This document shows positions 36,951 to 63,034 of a stretch of 64,000 nucleotides of DNA, piece by piece. Source of the DNA: Oculatellaceae cyanobacterium bins.114. Lineage in GTDB: Bacteria > Cyanobacteriota > Cyanobacteriia > Elainellales > Elainellaceae. The DNA is taken from assembly GCA_033764315.1 (NCBI GenBank), contig JANRJA010000065.1:1-64000 (forward strand), in the 5' to 3' direction. The notes beneath the pieces are model-generated. The model was given only the letters and a program-made list of their open reading frames with translations, was not told the origin of the DNA and searched no databases. Made by a program: the position numbers and the translations under genes. The number at the start of each line of letters is the position of its first letter. Position 1 is the stretch's first letter.

Positions 36951-37039
36951 ATTCTTAGATCCTCCCTAACCCTCCTTAAAAAGGAGGGGATCGGAAGTCC
37001 TCTTCTAAAAATCTTTTGTACTTATTCAAATGTATAACC

Positions 37040-38035: not shown

Positions 38036-38038
38036 AGG

Positions 38039-39064
38039 ATGGTTATTCTGATTCGAGCCGATGCATCAGTGGCAATCGGCACAGGTCATATCATGCGCTG
38101 TCTGGCTCTGGCACAAGGTTTACAGTCAGCAGGTCATTACCCGATTGTTGTCGCGGCTCAAATCACCCCCAATTTAGTCAGCCGTCTTCAAACATTAGAC
38201 ATTCAGCTCATTAACATTCCGCATGAACTGGGTAGTTTGGATGATGCTCAGGCAACGATCGCCCTGGCTCGTCTACAGCAAACCAGTTGGATGATTGTCG
38301 ATGGCTATCACTTTGGCGCAGAGTATCAACGCTGGATCAAATCGGCAGGCTTGAACCTACTGTTTTTTGATGACTATCAACATGCCACTCATTACTATGC
38401 GGATCTGGTGCTGAATCAAAATGTCTATGCTCACCCAGAGCTTTATGCTAACCGTGAGCCTGACACTCAACTGCTATTAGGCACTCGCTATGCCCTACTC
38501 AGGCCAGAGTTTTTGCAATGGCAGGGTTGGCAGCGATCGCCCAATCCTGCCGCAAACAAGATTTTGATCACGATGGGAGGGGCTGACCCAGACAACGTAA
38601 CGCTAAAGATTTTGCAAGCCATTCAGCACATCAACTGCAAGTTGGAGGTCATTGTTGTCATTGGAGGCAGCAATCCTCATCGGGAGTCGCTTCAACAGGT
38701 GATTCAATCATCTCGCCACTCGGTTCATTTGAAGCAAAATGTGACCAATATGCCCGAACTGATGGCATGGGCAGATGTGGCGATCGCCGCAGGGGGCACA
38801 ACCTCTTGGGAACTCGCCTTCATGGGTCTGCCAACGTTAATGCTGATCTTGGCAGAGAACCAACGGGCGATCGCTGAAAAATTGGGCGAATTAGGAGTTG
38901 TGGTCAACCTGAGGTGGCATCAGGATGTAACAACGGAGGCGATCGCGACGACATTGACTGAGCTTCTTTCTAACCCTGCCAAATGCCGTGACATGACGCA
39001 GCGAAGCCAAAGCCTGGTAGATGGCAAAGGGGTTGAACGAGTTTTGGAATGTTTGGTGAACTGA
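38039..39064 (+). CDS. pseG: UDP-2,4-diacetamido-2,4,6-trideoxy-beta-L-altropyranose hydrolase
   Basis: IRADAS..IGTGHIMRCLALA, VDGY, TMGGAD, AGGTTSWE, AENQ. Confidence 0.92.
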   Translation: MVILIRADASVAIGTGHIMRCLALAQGLQSAGHYPIVVAAQITPNLVSRLQTLDIQLINIPHELGSLDDAQATIALARLQQTSWMIVDGYHFGAEYQRWIKSAGLNLLFFDDYQHATHYYADLVLNQNVYAHPELYANREPDTQLLLGTRYALLRPEFLQWQGWQRSPNPAANKILITMGGADPDNVTLKILQAIQHINCKLEVIVVIGGSNPHRESLQQVIQSSRHSVHLKQNVTNMPELMAWADVAIAAGGTTSWELAFMGLPTLMLILAENQRAIAEKLGELGVVVNLRWHQDVTTEAIATTLTELLSNPAKCRDMTQRSQSLVDGKGVERVLECLVN

Positions 39065-39168
39065 GGTTTATCCAGAGAGACGCGATTAATCGCGTTTGTC
39101 CTACTGATGGTTTGTCCTAACTGAATGGGCTATGGCTACAGTTAGCGATAAGTTAGCTACAACGATAT

Positions 39169-39430
39169 TTTGAGTGTGATTCAGATCACTTAGAGTTCCT
39201 TCGTTGCGGCTCAGAGTCCTTTCATTGCCACTTTGAGTGTGATTCAGATCACTTGGATTCCCTTCGTTGTCTTGTCGAGTTCTTCCGTTGCCGCTTTGAG
39301 TGTGATTCAGATCACTTGGATTCCCTTCGTTGCCGCTCAAAGTATCTTCGTTGGGAGTCAAAGTAACTCCGTTGACACTCTCGGCTGCTTCGATGGCATT
39401 CAAAGAGGCTTCATTCCCGCTCGACATCAC
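39169..39430. repeat. 21-bp-periodic degenerate array containing three 63-bp higher-order units
   Basis: TTTGAGTGTGATTCAGATCACTT at 39169, 39232 and 39295; TTCGTTG-like core every 21 bp; minus frame is stop-free (ORF 39101..39439). Confidence 0.85.
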
Positions 39431-39570
39431 AAAATTCACTGAGTCTCTATCTCTAATGAGATGTTTTTCCAGTGCTGCTACGGAGTTACTGATCTACTAA
39501 TTAAGGGAATTTCAAGAGATAGGTAACGCACCCATAAACGGTGCATCTCAACATTCCAAGGAGTCAATTC

Positions 39571-40044
39571 ATGACCATTCGTACAATCGATGCAACCCTA
39601 TCCTCAACGGATGTTGCAGAGGTTCTCACTGCTCTAGAAACAGTTCGCCAAAAGCTCTCATTTTTAATGGGTTTGACTCCAACTGAACGACGCCAATTGG
39701 CGAAATTAGGACTTAAATCGCAAACCTTTGTCGTTAAAGCTCTTGATGTTGCTACTCAATATTCCAATTTAATGCCTCGTTGCCTTAACATTGACGAAGC
39801 TCGTCGAGATTTAGCCCTGTTTGAAGCTTTAAACCCTGTCCTACAATCGCTGAGCCAACTACGAGAATTGGTTGAAGATACGCAAATGGTGGCAGGCAGT
39901 GAAGCCTATGCCGCTGCACGAGTTGCCTATAGCTCCATCAAAACGGTTGGTAAAAGCATGGGTCTGGATGAAGTTAAAGATGACCTAGCACAGCGGTTTC
40001 GTAAGACTCGTAAAGTTCAGCCTCAAACTGAACCACAACATTAG
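39571..40044 (+). CDS. Conserved-looking helical hypothetical protein (157 aa)
   Basis: AAGGAG RBS; motifs L.FL..LTP.ERR.L.K.G.K and DT...AGSEAY.AA...Y. Confidence 0.8.
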   Translation: MTIRTIDATLSSTDVAEVLTALETVRQKLSFLMGLTPTERRQLAKLGLKSQTFVVKALDVATQYSNLMPRCLNIDEARRDLALFEALNPVLQSLSQLRELVEDTQMVAGSEAYAAARVAYSSIKTVGKSMGLDEVKDDLAQRFRKTRKVQPQTEPQH

Positions 40045-40112
40045 AGATAGAAGTTAAAGATGAATAGGGGCGATCGCTTGATAATGGGGGAGCGATCGCT
40101 TTTTTGTTCTCA

Positions 40113-40310
40113 TTAACCTGATACCCATTTGAATTGGCTTCGCTGCATATGATTCCGTAAGGGCGTTTCGCGAAACGCCCCTGCCCAAGGATCTGCCACA
40201 ATCAAAAATTAAATCGGTATGAGTTTGGGATAAGGATTTTGGCGGTTGAAACCGCTGCTACACGAGCAAAACCAACCTGAGTCGGTTCAGTAAATCTTTG
40301 ATTTTGGTGG
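40113..40310 (+). mobile_element. Truncated MITE (2131/48530 family) with a 98-bp element (40122..40219) inserted in its terminal repeat
   Basis: TAACC-TGA-[TACCCATTTGAATT...AATTAAATCGGTA]-TGA-GTTTGGGATAAGG; 3-bp TGA duplication; inner REP-like GGGCGTTTCGCGAAACGCCC. Confidence 0.75.
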
Positions 40311-40332
40311 CATTTGGGGCAGCGACTATAAT
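40304..40332 (+). promoter_or_regulatory. Candidate sigma70-type promoter for mod
   Basis: TTGGTG-17 bp-TATAAT ending 33 bp before the ATG; -35 lies in the MITE remnant. Confidence 0.35.
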
Positions 40333-40364
40333 TGAGGGCAGATGTTTGATCCTCAGTGCTTTCT

Positions 40365-42509
40365 ATGACCCAACCGCCCACCTACGGCCCCCACAACCCG
40401 CACCCGCTGTCAACGCTACGGACGGAACTGGTGTGGGAGGGCAAGTATGACGAGTATGGGCAGCGGCGGGAAGTGGATATTGCTGGGTGCGCCATGCCGA
40501 TGCAGCGAATTGAGAGCATTGATGAACCGCGACGGGCAGCGGCGGCAACGGGGCAGTTGGAGCTGTTTGAACAGCAAAACCCCAAGCAGGATGACTTTCG
40601 CAATCGGCTGATCTGGGGTGACAACAAGCTGGTGATGGCATCGCTGTTGCAAGAGTTTAAGGGCAAGGTGGATCTGATTTATATTGACCCACCGTTTGAT
40701 GTAGGTGCAGATTTTTCGATGAGTGTGGCGATCGGGGATGAGCAGGAAGCGATTGAAAAAGAGCAATCAACATTAGAAATGGTTGCTTATCGAGATATTT
40801 GGGGAAAAGGAACCGATTCTTTTCTGCAAATGATCTATGAACGACTTGTCCTTGCTAGAGAATTACTCACCGACAAAGGTTTGATATTTGTTCATATCGG
40901 TTGGTTTGTATCTCATCAAGTCAAAGCAATAATTGATGATGTTTTTGGCAATAGCCAGTTCTTAAATCAAATTATTTGGAAAAGGCAAACAGCCCATAGT
41001 GATGTTGGTCAAGGTTCGCAGCATCTTGGACGTATTCATGATGTTATATTTCTGTATTCCAAGTCTGAGAATTTTACATGGAATATGCAGTACCAGCCAT
41101 ATTCTGAGGAGTACATAAATTCTTTCTATAAACACATAGAGCCAGAAACAGGACGCAGATATCGACTTAGCGATACAACTGGCCCCGGAGGTGCTTCAAA
41201 GGGTAATCCGCGCTATGAATTCTTAGGAGTAACACGATATTGGCGATTTAAACAAGAACGCATGGAGGAGCTTTATAAACAGGGACGCATAGTTCAAACT
41301 AAACCAGGAACCGTTCCGCAACAAAAACGCTATTTAGATGAGATGTCAGGAGTACCTATCCAGGACCTATGGTTAGATATCAATACTGTCCAGCCTCAGT
41401 CATTAGAAAGACTTGGATATGAAACTCAAAAGCCAGAAACTCTTCTCGAACGAGTGATTTCTCTAGCTTCCAACGAGGGCGATCTGGTGGCAGATTTCTT
41501 TTGTGGCAGTGGCACGACCGGGGCGGTTGCCGAGCGGTTGGGGCGCAGGTGGCTGATGTGTGACTTGGGGCGGTTTGCCATTCACACGTCGCGCAAGCGG
41601 ATGATTGAGCTACAGCGCAAGCTGCACGGTGAGGGCAAACCCTATCGCGCCTTTGATGTCTATAACCTGGGACGCTATGAGCGGCAGTGGTGGCAAAAGG
41701 ATCGCTTGCAGGGGGCAGATGCAGAACATCGACGGGTGATTCTGGAGTTCTTCAAAGCGGAGGTGCTGACCAACCCACCCTCTCCCTTGCTGCATGGGCG
41801 CAAAGCCGGGGCATTTTGTCATGTGGATGGCATCGACTCGATGTTTACCCGCGAAGAAGCGAAACAGGTGGCGCAGGCAACGGCGCAGGCGGGTGGGCGC
41901 GAGTGTTATTGCCTCGCCTGGGAGTTTGAGATGGATTTGCATTTGCTGGTCAATGCCCTGACGCACGAGTTGGGCGTGAAGCTGAAGCTGGTGCAGATTC
42001 CCCGCGAGATTATGGAGAAGAATCGCAAGGCTCCACCGCCGTTTTTGGAAGTCGCTGTCCTCGCCGCCGAACCCGTCTACCGTAAAGCAACGACTGAAGT
42101 CGTTACTACAAACAAGGCTCGTAGTGAGGACTTTAGACCTCAAACCGTTACTACAAACAAGGCTCGTAGTGAGGACTTTAGTCCTCAAACCCACAGCGTA
42201 GATATCAAACTCACCCAGTTCCTCCCCTCCCTCGCCGAAGTGCCCACCAAAGAACTGGAAGCGATCAAAGAACGGGCGATCGCAAGCGGTTTTGATTTTA
42301 TTGACTTCTGGGCGATCGATTTCCACTGGCAACCGGGCAAACCCTTTACCCACGACTGGCAAGACTACCGGACACGGAAGGATCGATCGCTCAAAACCAT
42401 CAGCGATGCGAGCTACACCTATCCTGCTCCGGGCAAATACACCGCCTGCGTCAAAGTCGTCGATACCTTCGGCTGCGACACCTCGATTACCGTAGAGGTA
42501 GAAGTATGA
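40365..42509 (+). CDS. mod: Type III-like DNA methyltransferase (Mod, beta class)
   Basis: NRLIWGDN, IYIDPPF, YETQKPE, DFFCGSGTT; in-frame REP-derived insert near the C-terminus. Confidence 0.9.
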   Translation: MTQPPTYGPHNPHPLSTLRTELVWEGKYDEYGQRREVDIAGCAMPMQRIESIDEPRRAAAATGQLELFEQQNPKQDDFRNRLIWGDNKLVMASLLQEFKGKVDLIYIDPPFDVGADFSMSVAIGDEQEAIEKEQSTLEMVAYRDIWGKGTDSFLQMIYERLVLARELLTDKGLIFVHIGWFVSHQVKAIIDDVFGNSQFLNQIIWKRQTAHSDVGQGSQHLGRIHDVIFLYSKSENFTWNMQYQPYSEEYINSFYKHIEPETGRRYRLSDTTGPGGASKGNPRYEFLGVTRYWRFKQERMEELYKQGRIVQTKPGTVPQQKRYLDEMSGVPIQDLWLDINTVQPQSLERLGYETQKPETLLERVISLASNEGDLVADFFCGSGTTGAVAERLGRRWLMCDLGRFAIHTSRKRMIELQRKLHGEGKPYRAFDVYNLGRYERQWWQKDRLQGADAEHRRVILEFFKAEVLTNPPSPLLHGRKAGAFCHVDGIDSMFTREEAKQVAQATAQAGGRECYCLAWEFEMDLHLLVNALTHELGVKLKLVQIPREIMEKNRKAPPPFLEVAVLAAEPVYRKATTEVVTTNKARSEDFRPQTVTTNKARSEDFSPQTHSVDIKLTQFLPSLAEVPTKELEAIKERAIASGFDFIDFWAIDFHWQPGKPFTHDWQDYRTRKDRSLKTISDASYTYPAPGKYTACVKVVDTFGCDTSITVEVEV
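42089..42190. repeat. In-frame REP cluster inside mod (3 hairpins, 45-bp duplication)
   Basis: rc GTAGTAACGACTTCAGTCGTT (42089-42109), GTAGTGAGGACTTTAG(A/T)CCTCA at 42121 and 42166; encodes TTEVVTTNKARSEDFRPQTVTTNKARSEDFSPQ. Confidence 0.9.
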
Positions 42510-42723
42510 ACATCGCCCGTAATGAGGTTCGTAGTGAGGACTTTAGTCCTCATGTTCCGGAGAGGTGGAAGTATGAACATCACTCGTAATGAGGTTCGTA
42601 GTGAGGACTTTAGTCCTCATGTTCCGGAGAGGTGGAAGTATGAACATCGCTCGTAATGAGGTTCGTAGTGAGGACTTTAGTCCTCATGTTCCGGAGAAAA
42701 CGACTAAAGTCGTTACTACGAAC
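42494..42723. repeat. Three 67-bp tandem REP units ending in a REPIN doublet
   Basis: GTTCGTAGTGAGGACTTTAGTCCTCA with GTAG at 42531, 42598 and 42665; inverted partner AACGACTAAAGTCGTTACTACGAAC at 42699-42723. Confidence 0.92.
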
Positions 42724-42745
42724 GTTGAGGTTGGAGGTACTTGCC

Positions 42746-43480
42746 ATGTATGAGTATCGTCGGCTAACACCAGAGCAACGAGCCGAAATTGTTCAACAAC
42801 GCTTAGCTAAGGGCTATCCACCCCACAGCCCACCTCACCCCATTCAGGATCAAGCGTTTTACTTGTTGACAGCAGCTTGCTACGAACATAAATGCCATAT
42901 TAAGAGTGAAGAACGACGCAAACAGCTTTTGGATTTGCTGTTTGAGCAGTTTACAGATCGTGGTGTTGAGCTACGAGGCTGGGTAATCTTGCCCAATCAC
43001 TATCATGTGTTGGTTTATTTGGGTGATTTTGATGAGGGCTTAAGCCCTCACTACAAACAAGATAAACACGCTTGTAGTAAAGGCTTTAGCCCTTATGAAC
43101 AAATAGGGAAAGTTTTACAACGAGTACACGGCTCTACATCTCGACAGTGGAACTTGGAAGATCACGCAGTCGGTCGGAAAGTTTGGTATGCCTATAGCGA
43201 TCGCGCTATTCGCTCTGAACGGCATTACTACACGACACTAAATTATATTCACTACAACCCAGTTAAACACGAATGGTCAAAATCACCCTATGAGTGGATT
43301 TGTAGTAGTGTGCATTGGTATTTGGAGCAGCAAGGACGTGATTTTTTACGGGATGCTTGGGTGCGCTATCCCATCAAAGACTATGGAAGAGAATGGGATG
43401 AATTTTTAATGCCTGAACATGCCTCGCTAAAGCGAGAACTACAAACCTATTCAGGAGAAGACCTATGGCAGAGCGAATAA
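42746..43480 (+). CDS. REP-associated tyrosine transposase (RAYT/TnpA-REP, Y1 HUH)
   Basis: FYLLTAAC, WVILPNHYHVL (HUH), SDRAIRSERH, NYIHYNPVKH, W.CSS; GGAGG RBS before ATG 42746; REPs at both ends. Confidence 0.9.
   Translation: MYEYRRLTPEQRAEIVQQRLAKGYPPHSPPHPIQDQAFYLLTAACYEHKCHIKSEERRKQLLDLLFEQFTDRGVELRGWVILPNHYHVLVYLGDFDEGLSPHYKQDKHACSKGFSPYEQIGKVLQRVHGSTSRQWNLEDHAVGRKVWYAYSDRAIRSERHYYTTLNYIHYNPVKHEWSKSPYEWICSSVHWYLEQQGRDFLRDAWVRYPIKDYGREWDEFLMPEHASLKRELQTYSGEDLWQSE
43033..43095. repeat. In-frame REP pair inside the RAYT gene
   Basis: TGAGGGCTTAAGCCCTCACTAC and GTAGTAAAGGCTTTAGCCCTTA; another REP (rc GTAGTTCTCGCTTTAGCGAG) at 43423-43442. Confidence 0.85.
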
Positions 43481-43689
43481 AAGTTTGGTTTGACCCGGAA
43501 GCTGATTTTTTAGAGGTGATTTTCTCGGATGCTCCAGGCTATATGCAGGAAACCGAAAACGATGCCGTTATGGAGCGTGTCGATTTAGAGGGCAACCTGC
43601 TCGGCTTCTCCATTTTGGCGGTTAGTCAGCTTGCCAAATCAAAACCATTGATTGCGGAGTTGTTATCAGAAAGAGGAAGTGCGGCTTAG
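43465..43689 (+). CDS. DUF2283 family protein
   Basis: IKVWFDPEADFLEV..., D.EGNLLGFSIL pattern; AGGAG RBS. Confidence 0.8.
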   Translation: MAERIKVWFDPEADFLEVIFSDAPGYMQETENDAVMERVDLEGNLLGFSILAVSQLAKSKPLIAELLSERGSAA

Positions 43690-43702
43690 AGGAGATGATG
43701 CA

Positions 43703-44044
43703 GTGGATAAGCTAGAAAACTATCGTCAGATCATTCAAAAGCTTCTGACTGACTATCAGCACTGGGCAATGGGTGCCAATCAGCCTGGAATTCAGCAATG
43801 TGTTGGCTTTGATGAAGAACACGACCACTATTTCTGGTTTCATGTGGGCTGGGATGGTAAGCGGCGAGATTTTGGAGTGACCGTTTACCTCCGCCTTGAA
43901 AACGGCAAAATTTGGATCGAAGAAGACTGGACAAAACAGGGCATCGCCAATGATGTACTAGAAGCTGGAGTCCCTGCCGAAGACATTGTTCTGGGCTTTC
44001 AGCATCCCAGCAAGCGTCCCCTGACAGAATTTGCTATTGCTTAA
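43703..44044 (+). CDS. xisI: XisI family protein
   Basis: DKLENYRQIIQ, FDEEHDHY, GKIWIEEDWT, GVPAEDIVLGF.HP..RP.TEFA; GTG start after GAGGAG. Confidence 0.9.
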   Translation: MDKLENYRQIIQKLLTDYQHWAMGANQPGIQQCVGFDEEHDHYFWFHVGWDGKRRDFGVTVYLRLENGKIWIEEDWTKQGIANDVLEAGVPAEDIVLGFQHPSKRPLTEFAIA

Positions 44045-44073
44045 TATTCACAATAATTGCAAGGAGGTAATTC

Positions 44074-44655
44074 GTGTCTACAGCAATCGAATTAAAAACT
44101 GATAAAAAGGTTTGGACAGATGAAGAATTTATGGCATTGCCTAAAGATGGGCATCGCTATGAGATCGTGAACGGAGAATTGGTTGACATGGGAAATTCAG
44201 GAGCATTGCATGGCAATCTTGCTATTATTCTAAGCTCTGCTCTTTTTGCTACTGTTAATGCTCAAAAACTAGGATCTTTGTTTGATTCTAGTACCGCCTT
44301 CAAGATGAAAAATGATAATAAACGCTCTCCTGACATTTCCTTCTTTGCCAAAGAGCGTTTACAAGGCATGACCGAATTGCCAACTGGCTTCCTAGAAGGC
44401 GCACCTGATCTTGCGGTGGAAATTTTATCTCCTGGCAACACAGTAGAGGAGATAGAAACAAAAATTACTGAGTATTTTGACAATGGTGCCCGCTTAGTTT
44501 GGATGATTAGCCCAACTCAGCACTATGTCCTTGTCTACCGCTGTGCCCAAGAACCCGATCGCCTGCTGAAATCGGTTGATTCTCTGGATGGAGAAGAGGT
44601 GATTCCCGGATTTACGTTCCCCGTGGCTGATCTATTTCAAAAGCTCTCATTCTGA
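44074..44655 (+). CDS. Uma2 family (DUF820) putative endonuclease
   Basis: RYEIVNGEL, RSPDISF, APDLAVEILSP, YFDNGARLVW, GEEVIPGF. Confidence 0.92.
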   Translation: MSTAIELKTDKKVWTDEEFMALPKDGHRYEIVNGELVDMGNSGALHGNLAIILSSALFATVNAQKLGSLFDSSTAFKMKNDNKRSPDISFFAKERLQGMTELPTGFLEGAPDLAVEILSPGNTVEEIETKITEYFDNGARLVWMISPTQHYVLVYRCAQEPDRLLKSVDSLDGEEVIPGFTFPVADLFQKLSF

Positions 44656-44660
44656 TTTTC

Positions 44661-47600
44661 ATGACCTCCTCCACCCTCAACCCCACCGTTCTCGAACCCC
44701 TGTTTGCCCCCTGGCAGGAACCCAACACCCATCGCGTTCGGGCAGAAAAATCCGGCGACCCCGCTGTAGTGAAACAGGGACGCAGAGCCTCCCCGATTGA
44801 GGTGGTCAATAACCTGCGAGCAGCCGTGCGAGAGTGGCGGGAAGCCTTTTACATCGGAGCCAGCGACACCACGATTCAACTGCTCAACCACTGGTTTAAC
44901 CGCGCCCATCGCAAAATCACCCCCGATGGTGAAGAATTTGAGTTTCGTTACTACTTCTGTCAGCGAGAAGCTGTCGAAACCCTGATCTACCTTAAAGAAG
45001 TCCGTCGTATCGAATGCCTATCCCAAATCATTGCCGAATTTGGCGGCGTGAATGCCGAATTGCAGGCATTGGGCATCACCGAAGACGAAGATGCCTGGAG
45101 CCGCTATGCCTTCAAACTGGCAACCGGGGCAGGCAAAACTAAAGTCATGAGCCTGTGCATCGTCTGGAGCTACTTCCACGCCCTGCGAGAATCTGACTCG
45201 GAGATGGCGCGGCATTTTGTCGTGATCGCCCCCAACCTGACCGTTTACGAACGGCTCAAAGACGACTTTGCTAACGGGCGCGTGTTCGATGAAGACCCCC
45301 TGATTCCCCCAGAGTGGCGCGGCGACTGGAATTTATCTGTTGTTCTCCAGGACGAAGCCAGTGGTGCGGCAACGGGTGGAACCCTCTATCTCACCAATAT
45401 CCACCGCCTCTACGACACGTCTAAACGCAAAAAGAACGCTGACGAAGACAATTACACCTGGATGGGACCTGTGGTGTCTAAGTCAAAAGCTCTCGATACC
45501 GGAGCCGCTTTACGAGACAGAATCACCGCCCATCGTCGGGTCATGGTTCTCAACGACGAAGCCCACCACGTCTGGGATTCTGGCTCCGCCTGGAACGAAG
45601 CCATCCGTACCCTGCATGAAACCATCCTGGCTCGCAGCGGTTGCAAGCTGGTGGCACAACTCGACTTTTCCGCCACCCCCAAAGATAACAAGGGGCTATT
45701 GTTCAAACACATCGTTTGCGATACGCCCCTCGGTGAAGCAGTGGATGCCGGAATTGTCAAAACCCCACTAATTGGGCAAGCCAGCCGCAAGCTGGTCGAA
45801 CAAGCCGACGACAACGCCGCCTATCGCTGGGAGCAGCATTTACTCTTGGGCTACGAACGCTGGAAAGCCAGCCAAGCCGAATGGCAAGCCAGTGGCAAAA
45901 AGCCGCTCCTGTTCATCATGTGCGATGACACCGATGCCGCCGATCAGATTACTCAACGCTTCAACACCGACCCACTGTTTGAGCAACTCAACGGCAAAAC
46001 CATTAACTTGCACACTAACCTGAAGGGCAAGTTGAAAAAAGTGGGACGGGGGAAAGAGGCGCGATATGAATTTGTGGAAGACGAAAAAGCCATCAGTGAC
46101 GATGACCTGAAGGCATTGCGAAAACTCAGCCGAGAACTGGATAGCAACGCCAGTCCTTATTTCTGCATTGTCTCAGTGCTGATGCTGCGGGAAGGCTGGG
46201 ACGTGCGAAATGTGACGACGATCGTGCCTCTGCGTCCCTATAGTTCCAAAGCCAACATCCTACCCGAACAAACCCTGGGGCGAGGCTTGCGCCGCATGAC
46301 TCCCCCTGGTCAAGCCAATGAACTGGTGACGGTGGTAGAACATCCCGCCTTTGCCAGCCTCTATCAGCAAGAACTGGCACAGGAAGGCTTGCCCCTGGAA
46401 ATTGTGGAACTCGATCGCGTTCCGGCTACAACGATTTCTATCTTCCCCGACGAAGTCCACAAGGATGTGAATACCCTGAATATCCAGATTCCCACCCTTT
46501 CCGCTGGCTTTCGGATTGTTCCCAAGCTGGAAGGCTTAACGATTCAGGATGTGAAAAAAGCCTTTAAACCCTACAAACTGTTGCCGTTGGGGATGACTAA
46601 AGTCATCACTACGAACGAGTTTGTAGTAACCACTCCAGTGGTTGATGAGACTACTGATGAGACGACTAAAGTCGTCACTACGAAAGAGTTTGTAGTAACC
46701 ACTTCAGTGGTTGATGAGACTACTGATGAGACGACTAAAGTCGTCACTACGAACAATACGATCGCGTATGAGGGGCGGCATCTGTTTACGGGGGAAGTCG
46801 TCGAAAAAATGCAGTTGAATTTGCCGCTCCTGGAGTCGGGCATTGGCGCGGTTTCCTACTATGTCAAACAACTGGAAACTATTTGCAAGCTGCGGGGACT
46901 CCATCCCATCCTCGCTCCCCTGATTCAGACCTTTTTAGAAGAGATCTTGTTTGAGCAGAAAACTACATTGTTTGATCCGGTTCTGGTGGCTCGGTTAGCC
47001 GACTCTGATGTGGGCGAACATCTGCGGGCAGTGTTTGTGCCTCTAATTCGCAGCCGCACTACTACCTCAGAAGAACGGCTGATCGTCGAACCGCCCAAAT
47101 CTCTCAACGCCTGGAAACCCTTTCAAGTCACCCTCAGTGAACGCCGTCCTGCCCTGGAAGCCGCAAAGACCCTGTTTAACCTCGTCACCTGCAACCGAGA
47201 GTTAGAAGTAGCCGTAGCAAAGTTTTGCGATCGCGCCCCCGATGTGGCTGCCTTTGCCAAAAATGCCGGATCGCAGTGTTTGCGAGTGGACTATCTCGCC
47301 AATGGCGATCGCCTCGCCTTCTATACCCCAGACTTCTTCATTCGTACCCTTGATAGTCACTACTACCTGGTCGAAACCAAAGGGCGAGAAGATCGGGATG
47401 TGCCGTTGAAAGCCAAAGCGGCGATCGCTTGGTGCGAGGCTGCTTCTGGGGTGACGACTGAAGTCGCCACTACAAACCAAAACGTTCGTAGTGCTGACTT
47501 TAGTCAGCAAAAAGCAGGCACATGGCACTATCTCTACATTCCTCAAGGGGTCTTTGAACGGATGGCAGGTGATACCATTGCCGAACTTGCCCGCGCCTGT

Positions 47601-48272
47601 GCCCCCGCCTTACAAAACCTGCTCCAATCTGAGGAGTTTCAAGACTTGCCGCTGTTTGTAAATTTGGGACAGGTGGATGAAGAAGCCTCCGCTGTCGATA
47701 GCCTGATTGATCCAGCGATTCTCAATGCTCTGCCTTCTCGCTATCGCCGCGCCGCCGATCAAGCCGTTATGCTCTATCGCTTTTTTGAAAACAAAGAGGG
47801 CATGAATTATGCTCCTGTCTTTACCGCTCTACTCGGCTCGATTGACGAGGTGGCTAAAGGTTTCCTGGTAAGGCGATTGCAGCCAGAAATGCCCGTCACC
47901 GTGGATAGCCAAAAAGCCTGGTTTACTCCCTATTTGGGCAACGTAGACCGCAAATCAGAGGACTATTACCGCAAACTGGCACAAAATTTGAAACGGACGT
48001 TAGTCTTCAATAATGGCTTGTCGCTGATTGGTTTGCTGCGATCGTGTCTAGACTATGCGCTGAATGACACCACAAAAATCGGGGGTGTATTCGAGGCGTT
48101 GCAAACTCAGTTACGGGTTCAGGGCGGACGCAAGTTTTTAGAAACTGTCACCCGTATCAACGACTTTCGGAACACCTACATTGCTCACCAGGAACAAGAG
48201 TTAACCGATAAAAATTTAGCCGAGCAAGAACTCAAAATCTGGATCGAGGCATTGCATATGATTGGAAAATAA
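44661..48272 (+). CDS. res: Type III-like restriction subunit: SF2 helicase, PD-(D/E)XK nuclease and C-terminal HEPN-like domain
   Basis: KLATGAGKT, NDEAHH, FSATP, LREGWD, EQTLGRGLR, YTPDF..VETKG, terminal RNTYIAH; two in-frame REP inserts. Confidence 0.88.
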   Translation: MTSSTLNPTVLEPLFAPWQEPNTHRVRAEKSGDPAVVKQGRRASPIEVVNNLRAAVREWREAFYIGASDTTIQLLNHWFNRAHRKITPDGEEFEFRYYFCQREAVETLIYLKEVRRIECLSQIIAEFGGVNAELQALGITEDEDAWSRYAFKLATGAGKTKVMSLCIVWSYFHALRESDSEMARHFVVIAPNLTVYERLKDDFANGRVFDEDPLIPPEWRGDWNLSVVLQDEASGAATGGTLYLTNIHRLYDTSKRKKNADEDNYTWMGPVVSKSKALDTGAALRDRITAHRRVMVLNDEAHHVWDSGSAWNEAIRTLHETILARSGCKLVAQLDFSATPKDNKGLLFKHIVCDTPLGEAVDAGIVKTPLIGQASRKLVEQADDNAAYRWEQHLLLGYERWKASQAEWQASGKKPLLFIMCDDTDAADQITQRFNTDPLFEQLNGKTINLHTNLKGKLKKVGRGKEARYEFVEDEKAISDDDLKALRKLSRELDSNASPYFCIVSVLMLREGWDVRNVTTIVPLRPYSSKANILPEQTLGRGLRRMTPPGQANELVTVVEHPAFASLYQQELAQEGLPLEIVELDRVPATTISIFPDEVHKDVNTLNIQIPTLSAGFRIVPKLEGLTIQDVKKAFKPYKLLPLGMTKVITTNEFVVTTPVVDETTDETTKVVTTKEFVVTTSVVDETTDETTKVVTTNNTIAYEGRHLFTGEVVEKMQLNLPLLESGIGAVSYYVKQLETICKLRGLHPILAPLIQTFLEEILFEQKTTLFDPVLVARLADSDVGEHLRAVFVPLIRSRTTTSEERLIVEPPKSLNAWKPFQVTLSERRPALEAAKTLFNLVTCNRELEVAVAKFCDRAPDVAAFAKNAGSQCLRVDYLANGDRLAFYTPDFFIRTLDSHYYLVETKGREDRDVPLKAKAAIAWCEAASGVTTEVATTNQNVRSADFSQQKAGTWHYLYIPQGVFERMAGDTIAELARACAPALQNLLQSEEFQDLPLFVNLGQVDEEASAVDSLIDPAILNALPSRYRRAADQAVMLYRFFENKEGMNYAPVFTALLGSIDEVAKGFLVRRLQPEMPVTVDSQKAWFTPYLGNVDRKSEDYYRKLAQNLKRTLVFNNGLSLIGLLRSCLDYALNDTTKIGGVFEALQTQLRVQGGRKFLETVTRINDFRNTYIAHQEQELTDKNLAEQELKIWIEALHMIGK
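46592..46754. repeat. In-frame cluster of five alternating REPs (69-bp period) in res
   Basis: GA(T/C)GACTAAAGTC(A/G)TCACTAC at 46592, 46661 and 46730; GTAGTAACCACT(C/T)CAGTGGTT at 46623 and 46692. Confidence 0.92.
47453..47509. repeat. In-frame REP pair in res after the nuclease motif
   Basis: GACGACTGAAGTCGCCACTAC and GTAGTGCTGACTTTAGTCAGCA; encodes TTEVATTNQNVRSADFSQQ. Confidence 0.88.
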
Positions 48273-48279
48273 ATAAGAT

Positions 48280-48387
48280 ACGCGATGTGCAACTTAGGGG
48301 TTTAGATCCCCGGTTGCTCGTTCAGCATCCTCAAATTGGTCTGATTCGCGTCATAGCAACCGGGGAGCTGGGAAGGTCGCACACGGG
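48280..48387. mobile_element. ~108-bp MITE with 9-bp target-site duplication (copy of 17814 family)
   Basis: Flanked by AAATAAGAT at 48271-48279 and 48388-48396. Confidence 0.85.
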
Positions 48388-48529
48388 AAATAAGATGCAA
48401 TTGCCAAGCAAGGCAACCAATCGATTTTTGACACCAGTTTTTTGTTTGCGTTGACTGCTTAGAGCGATCGCCCCTTGTTGATTCCAGGCTTAAAACGTCC
48501 TAATGATCATAACTAACGCTATAACTCTA

Positions 48530-48692
48530 ACGTCAGTTCGGTTTAAGCAGCCCAGCGAATCAATTCGCGACTACCAGAGCAAAGTCCGCCGTCGCGGACT
48601 ACCAACATCAAAGATTGACTGAACCGACGCAAGTCGGTTTTGCTTGTGTAGCAGCGGTTTCAACCGCCAAAATCCTTATCCTGAACTCAGGT
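48530..48692 (-). mobile_element. 163-bp MITE (2131 family), inverted
   Basis: Reverse complement aligns with 2131..2293; flanks TAACTCTA / TAACGCTA. Confidence 0.8.
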
Positions 48693-48835
48693 TAACGCTA
48701 TGTAAAGGCAAGACCTGAAACTCAGCCTCAGACCTGTTGCAAAGAGCGATCGCCTTTTTTACCTACTTCCAGAAATACCTTTAAGCTCTGCAATGATGGG
48801 AAAGTGAATAGAAGCGAGTCCAATTACCCCTAACT

Positions 48836-49405
48836 ATGCAGGTTTTGTTTCTGGGTCCACCTCATCCAGCGTTACAACATTTTCTAGAGAGCTGTGGCGA
48901 TCGCGTTACAACTACAGAAGAGAAAATCAGTACTAGTTCTGAATTCCTTGCCAAGACCGATTTCATCGTCAGTTATCGATATCGACATATCCTAAAACAG
49001 GATGTGCTGAGCCAGTTTTTGAATCGAGCGATTAACATCCATATTTCATTCCTTCCCTGGAATCGCGGGTCTGATCCAAACCTATGGAGTTTTCTGGAAG
49101 ACACTCCAAAAGGCGTGACGATTCACTATATAAACTCCGGGATTGATACTGGGGATATCTTAGTGCAACAAGCAGTTAGTTTTTCTGACCAAGACACATT
49201 ACGAACCAGTTATGAGAAACTAACACAGGTAGCTGAGGCGTTATTTAAAGCTCATTGGTTAGCCATTCGAGATGGAACGCTTCAACCATGTCCTCAGGTA
49301 GGGGAAGGTTCTTATCATCGCACCCGCGATCGCGCTCCCTATGAACATCTTTTAACCCAAGGTTGGGATACTCCTGTTTGTAGTTTGATTGGAAAAGCTC
49401 TTTAA
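48836..49405 (+). CDS. Formyltransferase (probable sugar N-formyltransferase)
   Basis: SYRYRHIL, INIHISFLPWNRG, GVTIHY..GIDTGDI. Confidence 0.88.
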   Translation: MQVLFLGPPHPALQHFLESCGDRVTTTEEKISTSSEFLAKTDFIVSYRYRHILKQDVLSQFLNRAINIHISFLPWNRGSDPNLWSFLEDTPKGVTIHYINSGIDTGDILVQQAVSFSDQDTLRTSYEKLTQVAEALFKAHWLAIRDGTLQPCPQVGEGSYHRTRDRAPYEHLLTQGWDTPVCSLIGKAL

Positions 49406-49428
49406 GATACTCCTTTTTATCCTCCGTT

Positions 49429-50484
49429 ATGATGCAACAGCCGATTCACATCGCTAATCGAACCGTTGGGCAAGAACACCCTCCGTTCATTATTGCGGAG
49501 ATGTCAGGCAACCATAACCAATCGTTAGAACGGGCATTAGATTTAGTTGAAGCCGCGGCCAAAGCTGGAGCACACGCCCTAAAGTTGCAAACCTACACGG
49601 CTGATACGATTACCCTTGATGTCAAAGAGGGGGAGTTTTTTATTGCTGACCCCAATAGTCTGTGGAAAGGCAACTCTCTGTATCAGCTCTATCAGCAAGC
49701 TTATACCCCCTGGGAGTGGCACAAACCGATCTTAGAGCGATGCCGTGAACTGGGCATGATTGGCTTCAGTACACCTTTTGACGAGACAGCGGTAGATTTT
49801 TTAGAATCCCTGGATGTGCCGCTTTACAAAATCGCCTCGTTTGAGAATGTCCACCTGCCCCTGATTCGCAAAGTGGCACAAACGGGGAAGCCGATGATTA
49901 TCTCAACGGGCATGGCAGCGATCGCCGAACTGGATGAAGCCGTTCGTGCTGCACGAGAGGCAGGATGTCAAGACTTAGTCCTGCTGAAATGTACCAGTTC
50001 TTATCCCGCAACCCCAGAGAACTCTAATTTGCTCACTATTCCCCATCTACAACAGTTGTTTGACGTGCAGGTGGGGCTATCCGACCACACGATGGGCATT
50101 GGGGCGGCGATCGCCAGTGTCGCTCTGGGAGCTACCGTGATTGAAAAACACTTTACCTTGAGACGGGCTGACGGTGGGGTAGACTCAGCTTTCTCAATGG
50201 AACCGGAAGAAATGCAACAACTCGTGATAGAGTCCGAAAGAGCATGGCAGGCGTTAGGTAAAGTGCAGTATGGATCCACTGAAGCTGAGAAAAAATCGAT
50301 GGTATTCAGGCGATCGCTCTATGTGGCTCAAGACATGAAAGCGGGCGATCGGTTTACCCCGGAAAATTTGCGAGCGGTGCGACCGGGTTTTGGATTGCCA
50401 CCCAAGTACTATGAAATGCTCCTGGGTAGAGCCATTAAACAGGATACCAAGAAAGGAACTCCCCTAAACTGGGGTCTGCTTTAA
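49429..50484 (+). CDS. pseI: Pseudaminic acid synthase
   Basis: IAEMSGNHNQ, KLQTYTADT, KIASFE, GLSDHT, IEKHFTL, C-terminal SAF domain. Confidence 0.95.
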   Translation: MMQQPIHIANRTVGQEHPPFIIAEMSGNHNQSLERALDLVEAAAKAGAHALKLQTYTADTITLDVKEGEFFIADPNSLWKGNSLYQLYQQAYTPWEWHKPILERCRELGMIGFSTPFDETAVDFLESLDVPLYKIASFENVHLPLIRKVAQTGKPMIISTGMAAIAELDEAVRAAREAGCQDLVLLKCTSSYPATPENSNLLTIPHLQQLFDVQVGLSDHTMGIGAAIASVALGATVIEKHFTLRRADGGVDSAFSMEPEEMQQLVIESERAWQALGKVQYGSTEAEKKSMVFRRSLYVAQDMKAGDRFTPENLRAVRPGFGLPPKYYEMLLGRAIKQDTKKGTPLNWGLL

Positions 50485-50518
50485 CTTAAGAATAAAGGTT
50501 AAAACAAACGATTGTTCT

Positions 50519-52948: not shown

Positions 52949-53014
52949 ATACCTCTTTCATAGTTGTCTTCCAAAAAAACATTTTAAGCTTCAACACACG
53001 TTACATAGCCATCC

Positions 53015-56614: not shown

Positions 56615-56654
56615 AACCTGAGATAACCTCCTACTTTGGAGCTATAGATCGACG

Positions 56655-58745: not shown

Positions 58746-58777
58746 GTAACTTAATCTGAGAAACTATTGATTATTGA

Positions 58778-59473: not shown

Positions 59474-59511
59474 TTTGAACTATATTATTCAAAGTTCATC
59501 AATTCATATTC

Positions 59512-62010: not shown

Positions 62011-62019
62011 GAACTGTTC

Positions 62020-62988: not shown

Positions 62989-63034
62989 ATCTTGAAAAGT
63001 GTTTTAATCCTTAGTGAGAATTGATCCTGAAGTT

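What the first reader, a model, noticed from the sequence alone, without database searches (positions are those of the whole stretch)
40365..48272. RAYT transposase embedded in a type III-like RM operon whose genes carry translated, in-frame REP insertions
Seen: a RAYT gene sits co-oriented between mod and res. About 17 hairpins of the form GTAGT-arm-2 nt loop-arm lie between 42089 and 47509, and I did not see this exact form elsewhere in the window. Four clusters are inside coding sequence (mod 42089, RAYT 43033, res 46592 and 47453) and all keep the reading frame. Tandem periods are 45 and 69 bp inside genes but 67 bp in the intergenic array. Established: RAYTs (Y1 HUH) bind GTAG-REPs and cut ssDNA, and REPs are usually extragenic. 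Inference: this may be a RAYT/REP-driven system that diversifies, shuffles or regulates a defence locus, or a REP family that survives in tolerant protein loops.
Basis: partly seen in the sequence, partly recalled or inferred. Interest (0 to 1): 0.9.

Follow-up and report, generated by a model that had tools for sequence, protein, structure and literature searches.

The report
RAYT and REP hairpins inside restriction operon
A small domesticated transposase gene sits between the two genes of a cyanobacterial restriction-modification operon, and its hairpin repeats have colonised that operon, surviving inside the genes only as in-frame pieces in loops that tolerate extra residues.

Summary
There are 17 GTAGT-tagged hairpins, all between 42087 and 47509; the tag pattern gives 13 hits against 0.03 expected by chance. 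13 of the 17 lie in frame inside mod, the RAYT gene and res. Tandem periods are 45 and 69 nt inside genes and 67 nt between genes.

The RAYT is an intact TnpA-REP of the cyanobacterial subclass 2.8. Three more small genes (DUF2283, XisI, Uma2) lie in the same mod-res gap.

In 32 evaluable homologous loci the RAYT recurs at the same place in 5. At least 3 family REPs occur in 5 of 5 RAYT-bearing loci and in 0 of 27 RAYT-less loci, always inside the operon.

The same three protein loops carry unrelated palindromic elements in other homologues, so they are permissive loops. Nothing supports diversification of target specificity or frame-shift switching.

Intragenic REPs, REPs inside RAYT genes and REP clustering near a RAYT are all in print. 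What I did not find in print is the recurrent embedding in a mobile Type III operon and the visible confinement of the REPs to it.

Best reading: a selfish REPtron that seeds REPs locally, filtered by selection. Whether this REP family also occurs genome-wide stayed unchecked.

The parts
40356..42509 (+). mod: Type III-like N6-adenine DNA methyltransferase, 717 aa from the GTG start (the database form starts at 40365, 714 aa). Motifs DPPF-111 and FCGSG-382 are intact.
42087..42191 (+). In-frame REP insert in the Mod linker loop (ATTEVVTTNKARSEDF...). It holds three hairpins (42087-, 42121+, 42166+) and a 45-nt unit x2. Relatives carry one unit, none, or a different element at the same loop.
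42490..42723 (.). Intergenic REP array: a 67-nt unit x3.1 that also duplicates the last ~20 nt of mod, holding three + hairpins (42531, 42598, 42665), followed by one inverted hairpin (42699-). This is the left border of the REPtron.
42746..43480 (+). RAYT / TnpA-REP, 244 aa, with a GGAGG ribosome-binding site 9 nt upstream. HYH-85 and YIHYNP-167 are intact and the N-terminus is proline-rich. A longer ORF from 42656 would read through two REPs, but homologues start at MYEYR.
43033..43095 (.). REP doublet inside the RAYT coding sequence (residues ~95-114), in the loop after the HUH strand. It is shared, with length variation, with the closest RAYT relatives. pLDDT is below 50.
43423..43446 (-). 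REP at the 3' end of the RAYT gene, translated as SLKRELQT. This is the right border of the REPtron. Homology to RAYT-less loci resumes about 6 nt downstream (~43452).
43465..43689 (+). DUF2283 gene (antitoxin-like). It is orphaned here: in RAYT-less relatives a DUF4258/PBECR2-like gene precedes it, and the last 8 codons of that gene now end the RAYT.
43652..44044 (+). XisI-family gene. No XisH partner is present here, although XisH-XisI pairs occupy this slot in relatives.
44074..44655 (+). Uma2-family (restriction-endonuclease-like) gene. It matches the PADLOC candidate defence family PDC-S03.
44661..48272 (+). res: Type III-like helicase-nuclease, 1203 aa (relatives are typically 1131-1133 aa). 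GAGKT-156, DEAH-299 and a D...ETK stretch at 883-907 are present.
46590..46754 (+). Res insert site 1 (residues ~644-700): five alternating hairpins, a 69-nt unit x2.3, in frame. Copy number differs between genomes.
47451..47509 (+). Res insert site 2 (residues ~931-954): one REP doublet, +60 nt, replacing a 5-aa linker just after the nuclease core.

Best explanation
This is a REPtron: a RAYT (TnpA-REP, HUH/Y1 enzyme, cyanobacterial subclass 2.8) with its cognate GTAG-tagged REP hairpins. It is lodged in the accessory-gene slot between mod and res of a conserved cyanobacterial Type III-like restriction-modification operon that is not syntenic between genomes.

Shown:
- In cyanobacterial relatives that slot holds toxin-antitoxin-like pairs.
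- In the window the RAYT plus its flanking REPs (~42510-43451) replaces the body of a DUF4258-like gene, and the RAYT reading frame runs through the 3' REP into that gene's last 8 codons.
- Family REPs are numerous only in loci that carry the RAYT, and there only inside the operon.
- Every intragenic copy is in frame and free of stops. Each sits in one of a few loops that most homologues keep short and that other palindromic elements have also entered.
- REP number and positions differ between RAYT-bearing genomes.
- RAYT and Res are under purifying selection.

Inferred:
- The RAYT is co-expressed with the operon.
- It binds and cuts REP hairpins on single-stranded DNA, as E. coli TnpA-REP does, and seeds REP doublets mainly into nearby DNA.
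- Selection removes every insertion that shifts the frame, brings a stop or hits a structured part. Only intergenic copies and 3n-long copies in permissive loops remain.
- Replication slippage between hairpins then expands them into the 45-, 69- and 67-nt arrays.
- The inserts are tolerated passengers rather than an adaptive device.
- The RAYT travels with the operon and is often lost.
For: RAYT identity. NF047646 scores 78.6 bits. The alignment profile hits PDB 4er8 TnpA-REP at E=3.3e-10. The AF2 model's best Foldseek hit is 4er8_A at E=7e-8, followed by IS200/IS605 transposases. HYH and YIHYNP are intact. The motifs, the length of insert-free relatives (~198 aa) and the Pro-rich N-terminus fit subclass 2.8 of Quentin 2018 (passages).

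Inserts against homologues.
- Mod loop, 120 homologues, 105 parsed: 54 have no insert, 12 this REP family, 30 a CCCTC/GGGAG-type palindrome, 9 other.
- Res site 2, 121 rows: 92 none, 12 REP, 16 the other palindrome, 1 other.
- Res site 1: 5 REP and 4 the other family of 121.
- The other family folds as nested palindromes, -26 to -81 kcal/mol.

Locus comparison. 32 of 55 loci were evaluable. The RAYT is at the same place in 5. At least 3 REPs occur in 5/5 RAYT-bearing against 0/27 RAYT-less loci (Fisher p=5e-6). No family REP lies in 34.8 kb of flanks of the RAYT-bearing loci or in ~56 kb of the window. The tag-only pattern gives 13, 9, 14, 2 and 2 hits in the RAYT-bearing loci and at most 2 elsewhere; 43 of 55 loci have none.

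Other points.
- The junction with the ancestral gene is shown.
- The slot contents of relatives are shown.
- Among the 76 hairpins, 5 of 8 stem pairs vary with compensatory changes.
- In the RAYT model residues 95-114 and 215-244 have pLDDT below 50.
- dN/dS is 0.09-0.19 for the RAYT and 0.06 for Res.
- There is no synteny of flanks.
- Precedent for local multiplication near tnpA-REP exists in Marinomonas.
Against: - The RAYT/REP association is not phylogenetically independent. Four of the five RAYT-bearing loci and the window share several insertion sites, so common descent explains part of the 5/5 against 0/27 contrast.
- Some RAYT-less loci and proteins carry relic REPs at the same loops: L025, L027, L031, L049 and L053, and 7 Res proteins with the site-2 insert only. 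Inserts can therefore persist or spread without an adjacent RAYT.
- Tandem expansion needs no RAYT.
- L024 has the RAYT but no REP in Mod or Res.
- The hairpins aligned were selected for being hairpins, so the 95% pairing is partly circular.
- No whole genome was available, so a dispersed population of this REP elsewhere in the genome is not excluded.
- Reuse of the same loops could reflect a target-site preference rather than selection.
- No activity of RAYT, Mod or Res was or could be tested.
- The Res tree is shallow and poorly resolved, so gain and loss of the RAYT cannot be told apart.
Confidence: 0.62

Rival explanations
1. The RAYT/REP module is a working part of the defence operon. REP hairpins in the mRNA or DNA, above all the 67-nt array between mod and the downstream genes, would tune the Mod:Res ratio or transcript stability. 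Alternatively, RAYT-mediated cutting at REPs would rearrange or switch the locus.
For: - The RAYT keeps the same position and orientation in 6 genomes (window plus 5 loci) and stays under purifying selection, dN/dS 0.09-0.19.
- The REPs seen are confined to the operon.
- In RAYT-bearing loci the gene that follows the RAYT's 3' REP differs: DUF2283, XisI, XisH or Uma2. This would fit REP-bordered deletions.
- Roles of REPs in mRNA stability are a classical proposal (abstract text of Di Nocera 2013).
Against: - 27 of 32 homologous operons have no RAYT, and the RAYT-less loci with full-length Res still show uninterrupted Res reading frames of 1000 aa or more.
- Slot content varies equally in RAYT-less loci.
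- The inserts lie outside the methyltransferase core and are multiples of 3, so no frame switching is possible.
- No terminator-like or promoter-like site lies at the array.
- No alternative mod or res cassettes and no long inverted repeats lie inside the operon apart from the REPs.
- Unrelated elements occupy the same loops in other lineages.
Confidence: 0.12
2. The REP inserts are inherited relics. They entered an ancestral allele once, from a RAYT now irrelevant or located elsewhere, and have since spread with the operon by vertical descent, horizontal transfer and recombination between alleles. The adjacent RAYT is a co-inherited neighbour and not the present cause.
For: - Insertion sites are shared across loci and also occur in RAYT-less proteins. 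Res site 2 is filled in 12 of 121 rows, including 7 (P0243-P0249) that lack the site-1 insert.
- Relic REPs occur in RAYT-less loci.
- dS differs widely between neighbouring genes for the same pair of genomes (DUF2283 0.09 against Uma2 0.84, window against L001), which suggests mosaic recombination.
- The six RM-embedded RAYTs fall in one subtree of the RAYT tree (24 rows, SH-aLRT 80).
Against: REP content differs between RAYT-bearing loci at sites that tandem slippage cannot explain:
- There is an extra REP near Res residue 30 in L001 and L023.
- There is an extra doublet in L001 at site 2.
- There is a doublet at 3946/3973 in L023.
- Stem variants differ at orthologous sites.

In addition, REP counts of 3 or more occur only where the RAYT is present, and the RAYT is conserved as a protein.
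Confidence: 0.18
3. This is an ordinary genome-wide REP family. The operon is simply where the genome's single RAYT happens to sit, and the cluster is the usual REP decoration of a RAYT gene plus a few chance intragenic copies.
For: - RAYT genes are normally flanked by their REPs while most copies are dispersed (passages of Corneloup 2021; Quentin 2018).
- Zero copies in ~56 kb only bounds a uniformly spread population to roughly fewer than 300 copies in a 5-6 Mb genome. This is my arithmetic, and the genome size is assumed.
- A second, dispersed mosaic repeat with GTAG-tagged hairpins does exist in the window.
- One spurious 85-aa database ORF (P0363) reads through a tandem array of a similar REP somewhere else.
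Against: - No family copy lies in ~56 kb of the window or in 34.8 kb of flanks in five other RAYT-bearing genomes, while the operons hold 3-17 each.
- 13 of the 17 copies are intragenic, the reverse of the usual extragenic bias.
Confidence: 0.2

Closest known systems
REPtrons: TnpA-REP/RAYT genes flanked by their GTAG REPs (E. coli; Marinomonas sp. MWYL1 REPtrons Ma and Mb)
   Same: - It is an HUH/Y1 enzyme with intact HUH and Tyr motifs whose fold matches 4er8.
- The gene is bordered by GTAG-tagged hairpins in inverted orientation.
- In Marinomonas the REPs are concentrated near tnpA-REP and are read as recent arrival with local multiplication (passage of PMC8266576).
   Different: - Here the REPtron sits inside an operon, between mod and res, at the same place in six genomes.
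- 13 of the 17 REPs are translated.
- The junction shows that the RAYT gene itself arrived by replacing another gene, whereas the 2021 paper states there is no evidence of tnpA-REP mobility.
TnpA-REP subclass 2.8 of Quentin et al. 2018 (PMC6006769)
   Same: It shares the NHYH HuH motif, the YIHYNP Tyr motif, W followed by Y, and the proline-rich N-terminus. Relatives are about 199 aa and cyanobacterial, and their genes are flanked by canonical GT[AG]G REPs. [quoted passage not shown]
   Different: The paper had 8 members, and the passages I saw make no mention of a restriction-modification context. Its supplementary figures were not seen.
Intragenic GTAG/CGTC REPs (Di Nocera et al. 2013, PMC3733652) and Rickettsia palindromic elements
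   Same: REP singles, dimers (20-30 aa) and clusters (43-82 aa) lie in frame within known proteins. They are frequent in DNA repair and replication enzymes, and the authors propose location in flexible linkers or loops. REPs overlapping the ends of RAYT ORFs are also listed (passages).
   Different: - That work describes genome-wide families. Here the visible copies are limited to one operon that also encodes the RAYT.
- The same loops are hit by several unrelated element families across homologues.
- The paper's cyanobacterial families GTAG-12, -15 and -16 could not be compared with this one. Consensus sequences were not in the passages, and Additional file 3 is an old .xls that was not read.
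Phase-variable Type III mod genes (phasevarions) and shufflon-type restriction-modification diversification
   Same: Repeats lie inside a Type III mod gene, and a DNA-cutting enzyme gene is next to it.
   Different: - The repeat units are 45 and 69 nt, so copy-number change keeps the frame.
- The inserts are outside the methyltransferase core.
- There are no alternative cassettes and no long inverted repeats.
- The description of phasevarions is recalled and comes from no call.
TnpA-REP association with prochlorosin genes in marine picocyanobacteria (Laurenceau et al., bioRxiv 10.1101/2020.03.09.984088)
   Same: A cyanobacterial TnpA-REP is found repeatedly next to one particular gene family, and a diversifying role has been proposed.
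   Different: It is a different RAYT subgroup without REP-like sequences, with facing rather than co-oriented genes. The authors' post-submission note says they found no strong evidence for or against causality (abstract and passages).

Membership tests
RAYT / TnpA-REP (HUH Y1 transposase-like) | HUH motif and catalytic Tyr motif in the right order | tested here: met
   HYH is at residue 85 and YIHYNP at 167. Both are invariant in the 17-sequence alignment A1 and align to the E. coli TnpA-REP motifs.
RAYT / TnpA-REP (HUH Y1 transposase-like) | Sequence and fold match to the family | tested here: met
   - NCBIfam NF047646 scores 78.6 bits, E=4e-22, just under the curated cut-off of 80.
- Pfam Y1_Tnp is only weak, 15.1 bits.
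- The profile hits PDB 4er8 at E=3.3e-10.
- The Foldseek top hit is 4er8_A at E=7e-8, TMt 0.67.
- The model's mean pLDDT is only 68.
RAYT / TnpA-REP (HUH Y1 transposase-like) | Gene flanked by GTAG-tagged REP hairpins | tested here: met
   There are four REPs upstream (42531-42719) and one at the 3' end (43423-43446). The same layout is seen in L001, L015, L023, L024 and L046.
RAYT / TnpA-REP (HUH Y1 transposase-like) | Single copy per genome; cuts and joins its REP on single-stranded DNA | not testable with these tools
REP / REPIN elements | Conserved 5' GTAG tag next to a palindrome whose stem varies with compensatory changes | tested here: met
   - GTAG, the CT..AG loop-closing pairs and T3 are invariant in 76 hairpins from 13 sources.
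- 5 of 8 stem pairs show changes on both sides, 116 cells against 32.6 in shuffles.
- The rows were chosen as hairpins. The tag-only pattern is the less circular check.
REP / REPIN elements | Extragenic, dispersed, high copy number | tested here: not met
   In the DNA available, 13 of the 17 copies are intragenic and all lie within 5.4 kb. None lies in the other ~56 kb. The genome-wide count was not testable.
REP / REPIN elements | Inverted doublets able to pair with each other (REPIN) | tested here: inconclusive
   Head-to-head doublets exist at 42087/42121, 43033/43074, 46590/46623 and 47451/47488. Only the RAYT-internal doublet folds as one long hairpin. In the others each REP folds on its own, because the two stems differ.
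Type III restriction-modification system | Mod: N6-adenine methyltransferase with motif IV (DPPY-like) before motif I (FxGxG), related to Type III Mod | tested here: met
   DPPF is at 111 and FCGSG at 382. PADLOC MTase_III scores 714.9 bits. PDB hits are 6k0w Mod and EcoP15I Mod 4zcf.
Type III restriction-modification system | Res: SF2 helicase motifs plus a C-terminal PD-(D/E)xK nuclease | tested here: inconclusive
   - GAGKT is at 156 and DEAH at 299, and Pfam ResIII matches.
- A D...ETK stretch lies at 883-907, and there is a weak TnsA-like nuclease hit.
- PADLOC REase_III scores 81.6 bits.
- The NCBIfam BPTD_3080 family scores 275.7 bits against a cut-off of 800.
- There is no PDB relative by sequence.
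Type III restriction-modification system | mod immediately followed by res in one operon | tested here: not met
   Here the gap is 2151 nt and holds four genes. In the non-cyanobacterial relatives L039, L041 and L042 the gap is 10-14 nt. All 29 evaluable cyanobacterial loci have gaps of at least 692 nt.
Phase-variable mod (phasevarion) | Short repeat tract whose copy-number change shifts the reading frame | tested here: not met
   The only repeats in mod and res have periods of 45 and 69 nt, plus sub-periods of 12.

The most novel reading that the evidence does not exclude
This would be a RAYT-REP lineage whose whole REP population lives inside a single, horizontally mobile Type III restriction-modification operon. 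It would move between cyanobacteria as a passenger of that addictive module. The RAYT would be kept by selection because it does something for the operon, such as setting Mod:Res expression through the REP array or promoting turnover of the toxin-antitoxin cassettes in the mod-res slot.

That would contradict two current views: that REP-RAYT systems are genome-wide and strictly vertically inherited, and that RAYT genes do not move.
Probability: 0.22. Interest if true: 0.75.

Novelty: new variant of a known kind. Interest (0 to 1): 0.5.

Why it matters
How REPs spread, and whether RAYT genes ever move, are open questions. A 2021 study states there is no evidence of tnpA-REP mobility (passage).

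This operon family offers a natural comparison. The same mod-res operon exists with and without the RAYT in many cyanobacteria. REPs are numerous only where the RAYT is present, and the insertion junction of the RAYT gene can be read. That makes local, RAYT-dependent REP seeding directly testable.

The locus also marks three loops in a large helicase-nuclease and its methyltransferase that accept 20-60 extra residues, and in some relatives a whole DUF559 domain. This is useful for engineering these enzymes and for annotation, because such inserts split or lengthen gene calls.

If the inserts or the RAYT turn out to affect restriction, it would be a new way for a mobile element to interact with a defence system.

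Tried and rejected
1. The REP-encoded peptide (35 aa, P0361) was searched against 1.84 billion representatives, to see whether other protein families carry this REP. It gave 2 hits: an unrelated Gram-positive repeat protein, and an 85-aa spurious ORF through a REP array. The query was too short, so the result says nothing about absence.

2. AlphaFold of Res 560-1203 with a 54-row alignment (A3) was meant to place the two inserts. No model was obtained, so the 'loop' status of the Res and Mod inserts rests on alignments only.

3. RAYT and Res were searched against PLSDB plasmids. There is no close relative there, which says nothing about mobility.

4. Rfam was searched over 39000-49500. It gave only sub-threshold chance hits.

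5. The promoter and terminator scan found nothing at the REP arrays.

6. The 89-nt inverted repeat bracketing the operon was considered as the ends of a mobile cassette. It was rejected as specific, because it belongs to a dispersed ~170-nt repeat with a third copy at 2129-2295.

7. The Res tree included 24 rows; L015, L023 and L046 were left out because Res is broken or partial there. RAYT-bearing rows are scattered and at least 2 changes are forced, but the cyanobacterial part is too shallow to tell gain from loss.

8. In the RAYT tree the context of 54 of the 60 rows is unknown, so the count of changes is meaningless. Only the placement of the six known rows in one subtree is used.

9. The regex count for Res site 1 was faulty because the left anchor matched too early. 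It was discarded in favour of the alignment.

10. The number of stop-free frames in the REP units (1-3 of 6, against shuffle means of 1.1-2.3) shows no clear coding adaptation.

A collection-wide REP pattern scan and the contexts of the other RAYT homologues therefore stayed unchecked.

Full report
**1. What is in the sequence**

The region holds six co-oriented genes with short gaps:
- mod, 40356/40365-42509
- a RAYT gene, 42746-43480
- DUF2283, 43465-43689
- XisI, 43652-44044
- Uma2, 44074-44655
- res, 44661-48272

Mod is a Type III-type methyltransferase. Pfam N6_N4_Mtase scores 7.5e-43 and PADLOC MTase_III 715 bits. PDB relatives are 6k0w and EcoP15I Mod. DPPF-111 and FCGSG-382 are present.

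Res carries ResIII helicase motifs (GAGKT-156, DEAH-299) and a nuclease-like D...ETK stretch. It scores 81.6 bits on PADLOC REase_III. It falls far below the NCBIfam BPTD_3080 cut-off (275.7 against 800) and has no PDB relative by sequence.

GCGATCGC is frequent in the sequence, and all close relatives are cyanobacterial.

**2. The hairpins**

- A perfect-stem scan found 14 GTAGT/2-nt-loop hairpins between 42089 and 47509, and 7 unrelated GTAG hairpins elsewhere.
- With one mismatch allowed there are 17, all within 42087-47509.
- A pattern that fixes only the tag and the loop-closing bases gives 13 hits against 0.03 expected, all in that interval.
- 13 of the 17 are inside coding sequence and in frame: 3 in Mod, 3 in the RAYT gene and 7 in Res.
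- TRF periods are 45 and 69 nt inside genes and 67 nt in the intergenic array. That array also duplicates the last ~20 nt of mod.
- An alignment of 76 such hairpins from the window and 12 loci has invariant GTAG and CT..AG. 5 of 8 stem pairs change on both sides. The rows were picked as hairpins, so the pairing percentage is partly circular.
- As single-stranded DNA the clusters fold better than shuffles, z -2.0 to -5.9.
- No Rfam family matches.

Two things were missed: a fifth intragenic REP position, at the 3' end of the RAYT gene, and the three other genes in the gap.

**3. The RAYT**

- NCBIfam REP_Tyr_transpos scores 78.6 bits against a cut-off of 80.
- The alignment profile hits E. coli TnpA-REP 4er8 at E=3.3e-10.
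- The AF2 model (mean pLDDT 68) has 4er8_A as its best Foldseek hit, followed by IS200/IS605 transposases.
- HYH-85, YIHYNP-167, W-Y and the proline-rich N-terminus match subclass 2.8 of Quentin et al. 2018. [quoted passage not shown]
- Hits below about 65% identity are mostly 196-206 aa.
- In the 17-row alignment, 5 rows have no insert after the HUH strand and 12 have inserts of varying length. The window and its closest relatives also share a C-terminal extension that reads through a REP.
- In the model, residues 95-114 and 215-244 are coil with pLDDT below 50.
- dN/dS against five orthologues is 0.09-0.19.

**4. Inserts compared with homologues**

| Site | Rows | No insert | This REP family | CCCTC/GGGAG-type palindrome | Other |
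|---|---|---|---|---|---|
| Mod loop (after AEPVYRK) | 120 (105 parsed) | 54 | 12 | 30 | 9 |
| Res site 1 | 121 | 112 | 5 | 4 | 0 |
| Res site 2 | 121 | 92 | 12 | 16 | 1 |

- Three of the 30 palindrome inserts in the Mod loop carry a whole DUF559 domain inside. The 9 'other' rows include a KGDLGGS-type repeat.
- At Res site 1 the REP copy number differs between genomes.
- The other family is a nested palindrome of 50-125 nt, -26 to -81 kcal/mol.
- At the DNA level the inserts replace 5-7-residue linkers between conserved flanks.

These are permissive loops that several unrelated elements have entered independently. A shared target-site preference is not excluded.

**5. Related loci**

- In 32 of them both the end of mod and the start of res are visible.
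- The three non-cyanobacterial loci have a gap of 10-14 nt.
- All 29 cyanobacterial loci have gaps of at least 692 nt, filled with small genes in a fixed order: RAYT, then DUF2283, then XisI, then Uma2, in varying subsets.
- Where ORFs were examined, these are toxin-antitoxin-like pairs:
  - a DUF4258/PBECR2-like gene (weak match) with DUF2283
  - XisH with XisI
  - a nucleotidyltransferase with HEPN
  - PIN with a small ORF
- The RAYT is present, always directly after mod, in 5 of the 32 loci (L001, L015, L023, L024, L046).
- Homology between the window and RAYT-less loci resumes at about 43452, just after the REP at 43423-43446. The RAYT's last residues (GEDLWQSE) are the tail of the DUF4258-like gene.

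So the RAYT with its REPs replaced that gene's body.

**6. REPs follow the RAYT**

- Family hairpins number 17, 10, 16, 3 and 5 in the five RAYT-bearing loci and 0-2 in the 27 RAYT-less loci. At least 3 REPs occur in 5/5 against 0/27 (Fisher p=5e-6).
- The tag-only pattern gives the same picture, and 43 of 55 loci have no hit.
- All copies lie within the operon. None lies in 34.8 kb of flanks of the RAYT-bearing loci or in ~56 kb of the window.
- L024 has REPs only around the RAYT and none in Mod or Res. L001 has extra copies in Res, and L023 has one more doublet in a broken Mod.
- Several RAYT-less loci keep single REPs at the same loops.

The contrast is not phylogenetically independent.

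**7. Mobility**

- None of the 16 ORFs flanking the window's operon has a counterpart next to any locus, apart from one 36% hit on the wrong side.
- Flanks of RAYT-bearing loci share only ~130 nt 3' of res.
- The Res tree mixes cyanobacterial families on very short branches, and RAYT-bearing rows are scattered. There were 24 rows; L015, L023 and L046 were left out.
- The six RM-embedded RAYTs fall in one subtree of the RAYT tree. The context of the other rows is unknown.
- In the window the operon interrupts a glycan-biosynthesis cluster.

**8. Literature**

| Point | Source | What I saw |
|---|---|---|
| Intragenic GTAG REPs: dimers 20-30 aa, clusters 43-82 aa, often in DNA repair genes, possibly in linkers; REPs overlapping RAYT ORF ends | Di Nocera 2013 (PMC3733652) | passages; supplements not read |
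| REP insertions inside tnpA-REP genes | Quentin 2018 (PMC6006769) | passages |
| REP concentration near tnpA-REP, read as recent arrival | Corneloup 2021 (PMC8266576) | passages |
| A RAYT-gene family association with a diversification hypothesis that the authors later weakened | Laurenceau preprint (10.1101/2020.03.09.984088) | abstract and passages |
| Group 4 RAYTs common in cyanobacteria | Bertels 2017 (PMC5581495) | passages |

Searches for RAYT with restriction-modification, REPIN/RAYT/intragenic, REPtron, and Type III RM/cyanobacteria/XisI listed no paper that describes a RAYT inside a mod-res operon. This covers only the held library.

**9. Verdict**

The best reading (0.62) is a selfish REPtron lodged in a permissive slot of a mobile restriction-modification operon. 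It seeds REP doublets locally, and selection leaves only intergenic copies and 3n-long copies in tolerant loops. Later tandem expansion accounts for the arrays.

The rivals are a regulatory or rearranging role (0.12), inherited relics with an irrelevant RAYT (0.18) and an ordinary genome-wide REP family (0.2). The genome-wide distribution, all enzyme activities and the structural placement of the Mod and Res inserts stayed unchecked.

Noticed in passing
window 40220-40308 and 48601-48689; also 48528-48694 and 2129-2295: An 89-nt inverted repeat (91% complementary) brackets the whole mod..res locus. It belongs to a dispersed ~170-nt mosaic of GTAG-tagged hairpins of a different type (GC-rich stems), with a third copy near 2.2 kb. 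It is either a second REP-like family or a MITE. Whether it marks the ends of an inserted cassette is open.
   Followed up: partly
loci L001-L055, mod-res interval (e.g. L045 8509-9026, L018 9252-9994, L005 770-1475, L020 9315-9978): In all 29 evaluable cyanobacterial relatives the gap between mod and res holds toxin-antitoxin-like pairs (DUF4258-like/DUF2283, XisH/XisI, MNT/HEPN, PIN) and Uma2, in a fixed order but in varying subsets. Non-cyanobacterial relatives have mod and res 10-14 nt apart. I found no description of this slot in the library searched.
   Followed up: partly
proteins P0022, P0026, P0061 (Mod homologues): A whole DUF559 (Vsr-like endonuclease, PF04480) domain is nested in frame in the same Mod loop, flanked on both sides by the CCCTC/GGGAG palindromic element.
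   Followed up: no
L024 8017-8154; P0007, P0013, P0052, P0075: A third repeat family (translated ...PLxKGDLGGS...) occupies the same Mod loop, including in the RAYT-bearing locus L024.
   Followed up: no
L006 5745-5882, L008 1957-2103, L018 6390-6509, L023 3031-3429, L049 5816-6043, L051 5597-5815: A short extra copy of the mod 5' end lies about 650-800 nt upstream of the main mod match in six loci. This suggests another insertion, or a split, near the start of mod.
   Followed up: no
L032 6574-16968: Two copies of the operon's front part lie in tandem: a second mod-XisI-Uma2 set starts ~300 nt after the end of res.
   Followed up: no
window 39151-39380 (ORF 39101-39439, minus strand): There is a 63-nt tandem repeat (2.9 copies) with an internal palindrome (TGTGATTCAGATCACT), inside a small minus-strand ORF that has no Pfam match.
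   Followed up: no
window 16675-16858 and 27266-27348: In-frame tandem repeats (15/30/45/60-nt periods; TP-rich 6/12-nt periods) lie inside long ORFs 16333-17793 and 25424-27868. The latter has trypsin, SdrD_B and RTX repeat domains.
   Followed up: no
window 37016-39064 and 48836-64000: The operon sits between methyltransferase and glycosyltransferase genes on one side and a formyltransferase-NeuB-methyltransferase-glycosyltransferase cluster on the other. G+C falls to about 0.40 downstream. This looks like an insertion into a surface-glycan gene cluster.
   Followed up: partly
The window's Mod is in the protein collection as an exact sequence (P0001, contig of 85,793 nt), but no exact match was listed for its RAYT or Res (best hits 87% and 93%). 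Separately, the RAYT P0123 and the insert-free Res P0270 both report a longest contig of 28,706 nt, so there may be a further RAYT-bearing locus. This was not verified.
   Followed up: no
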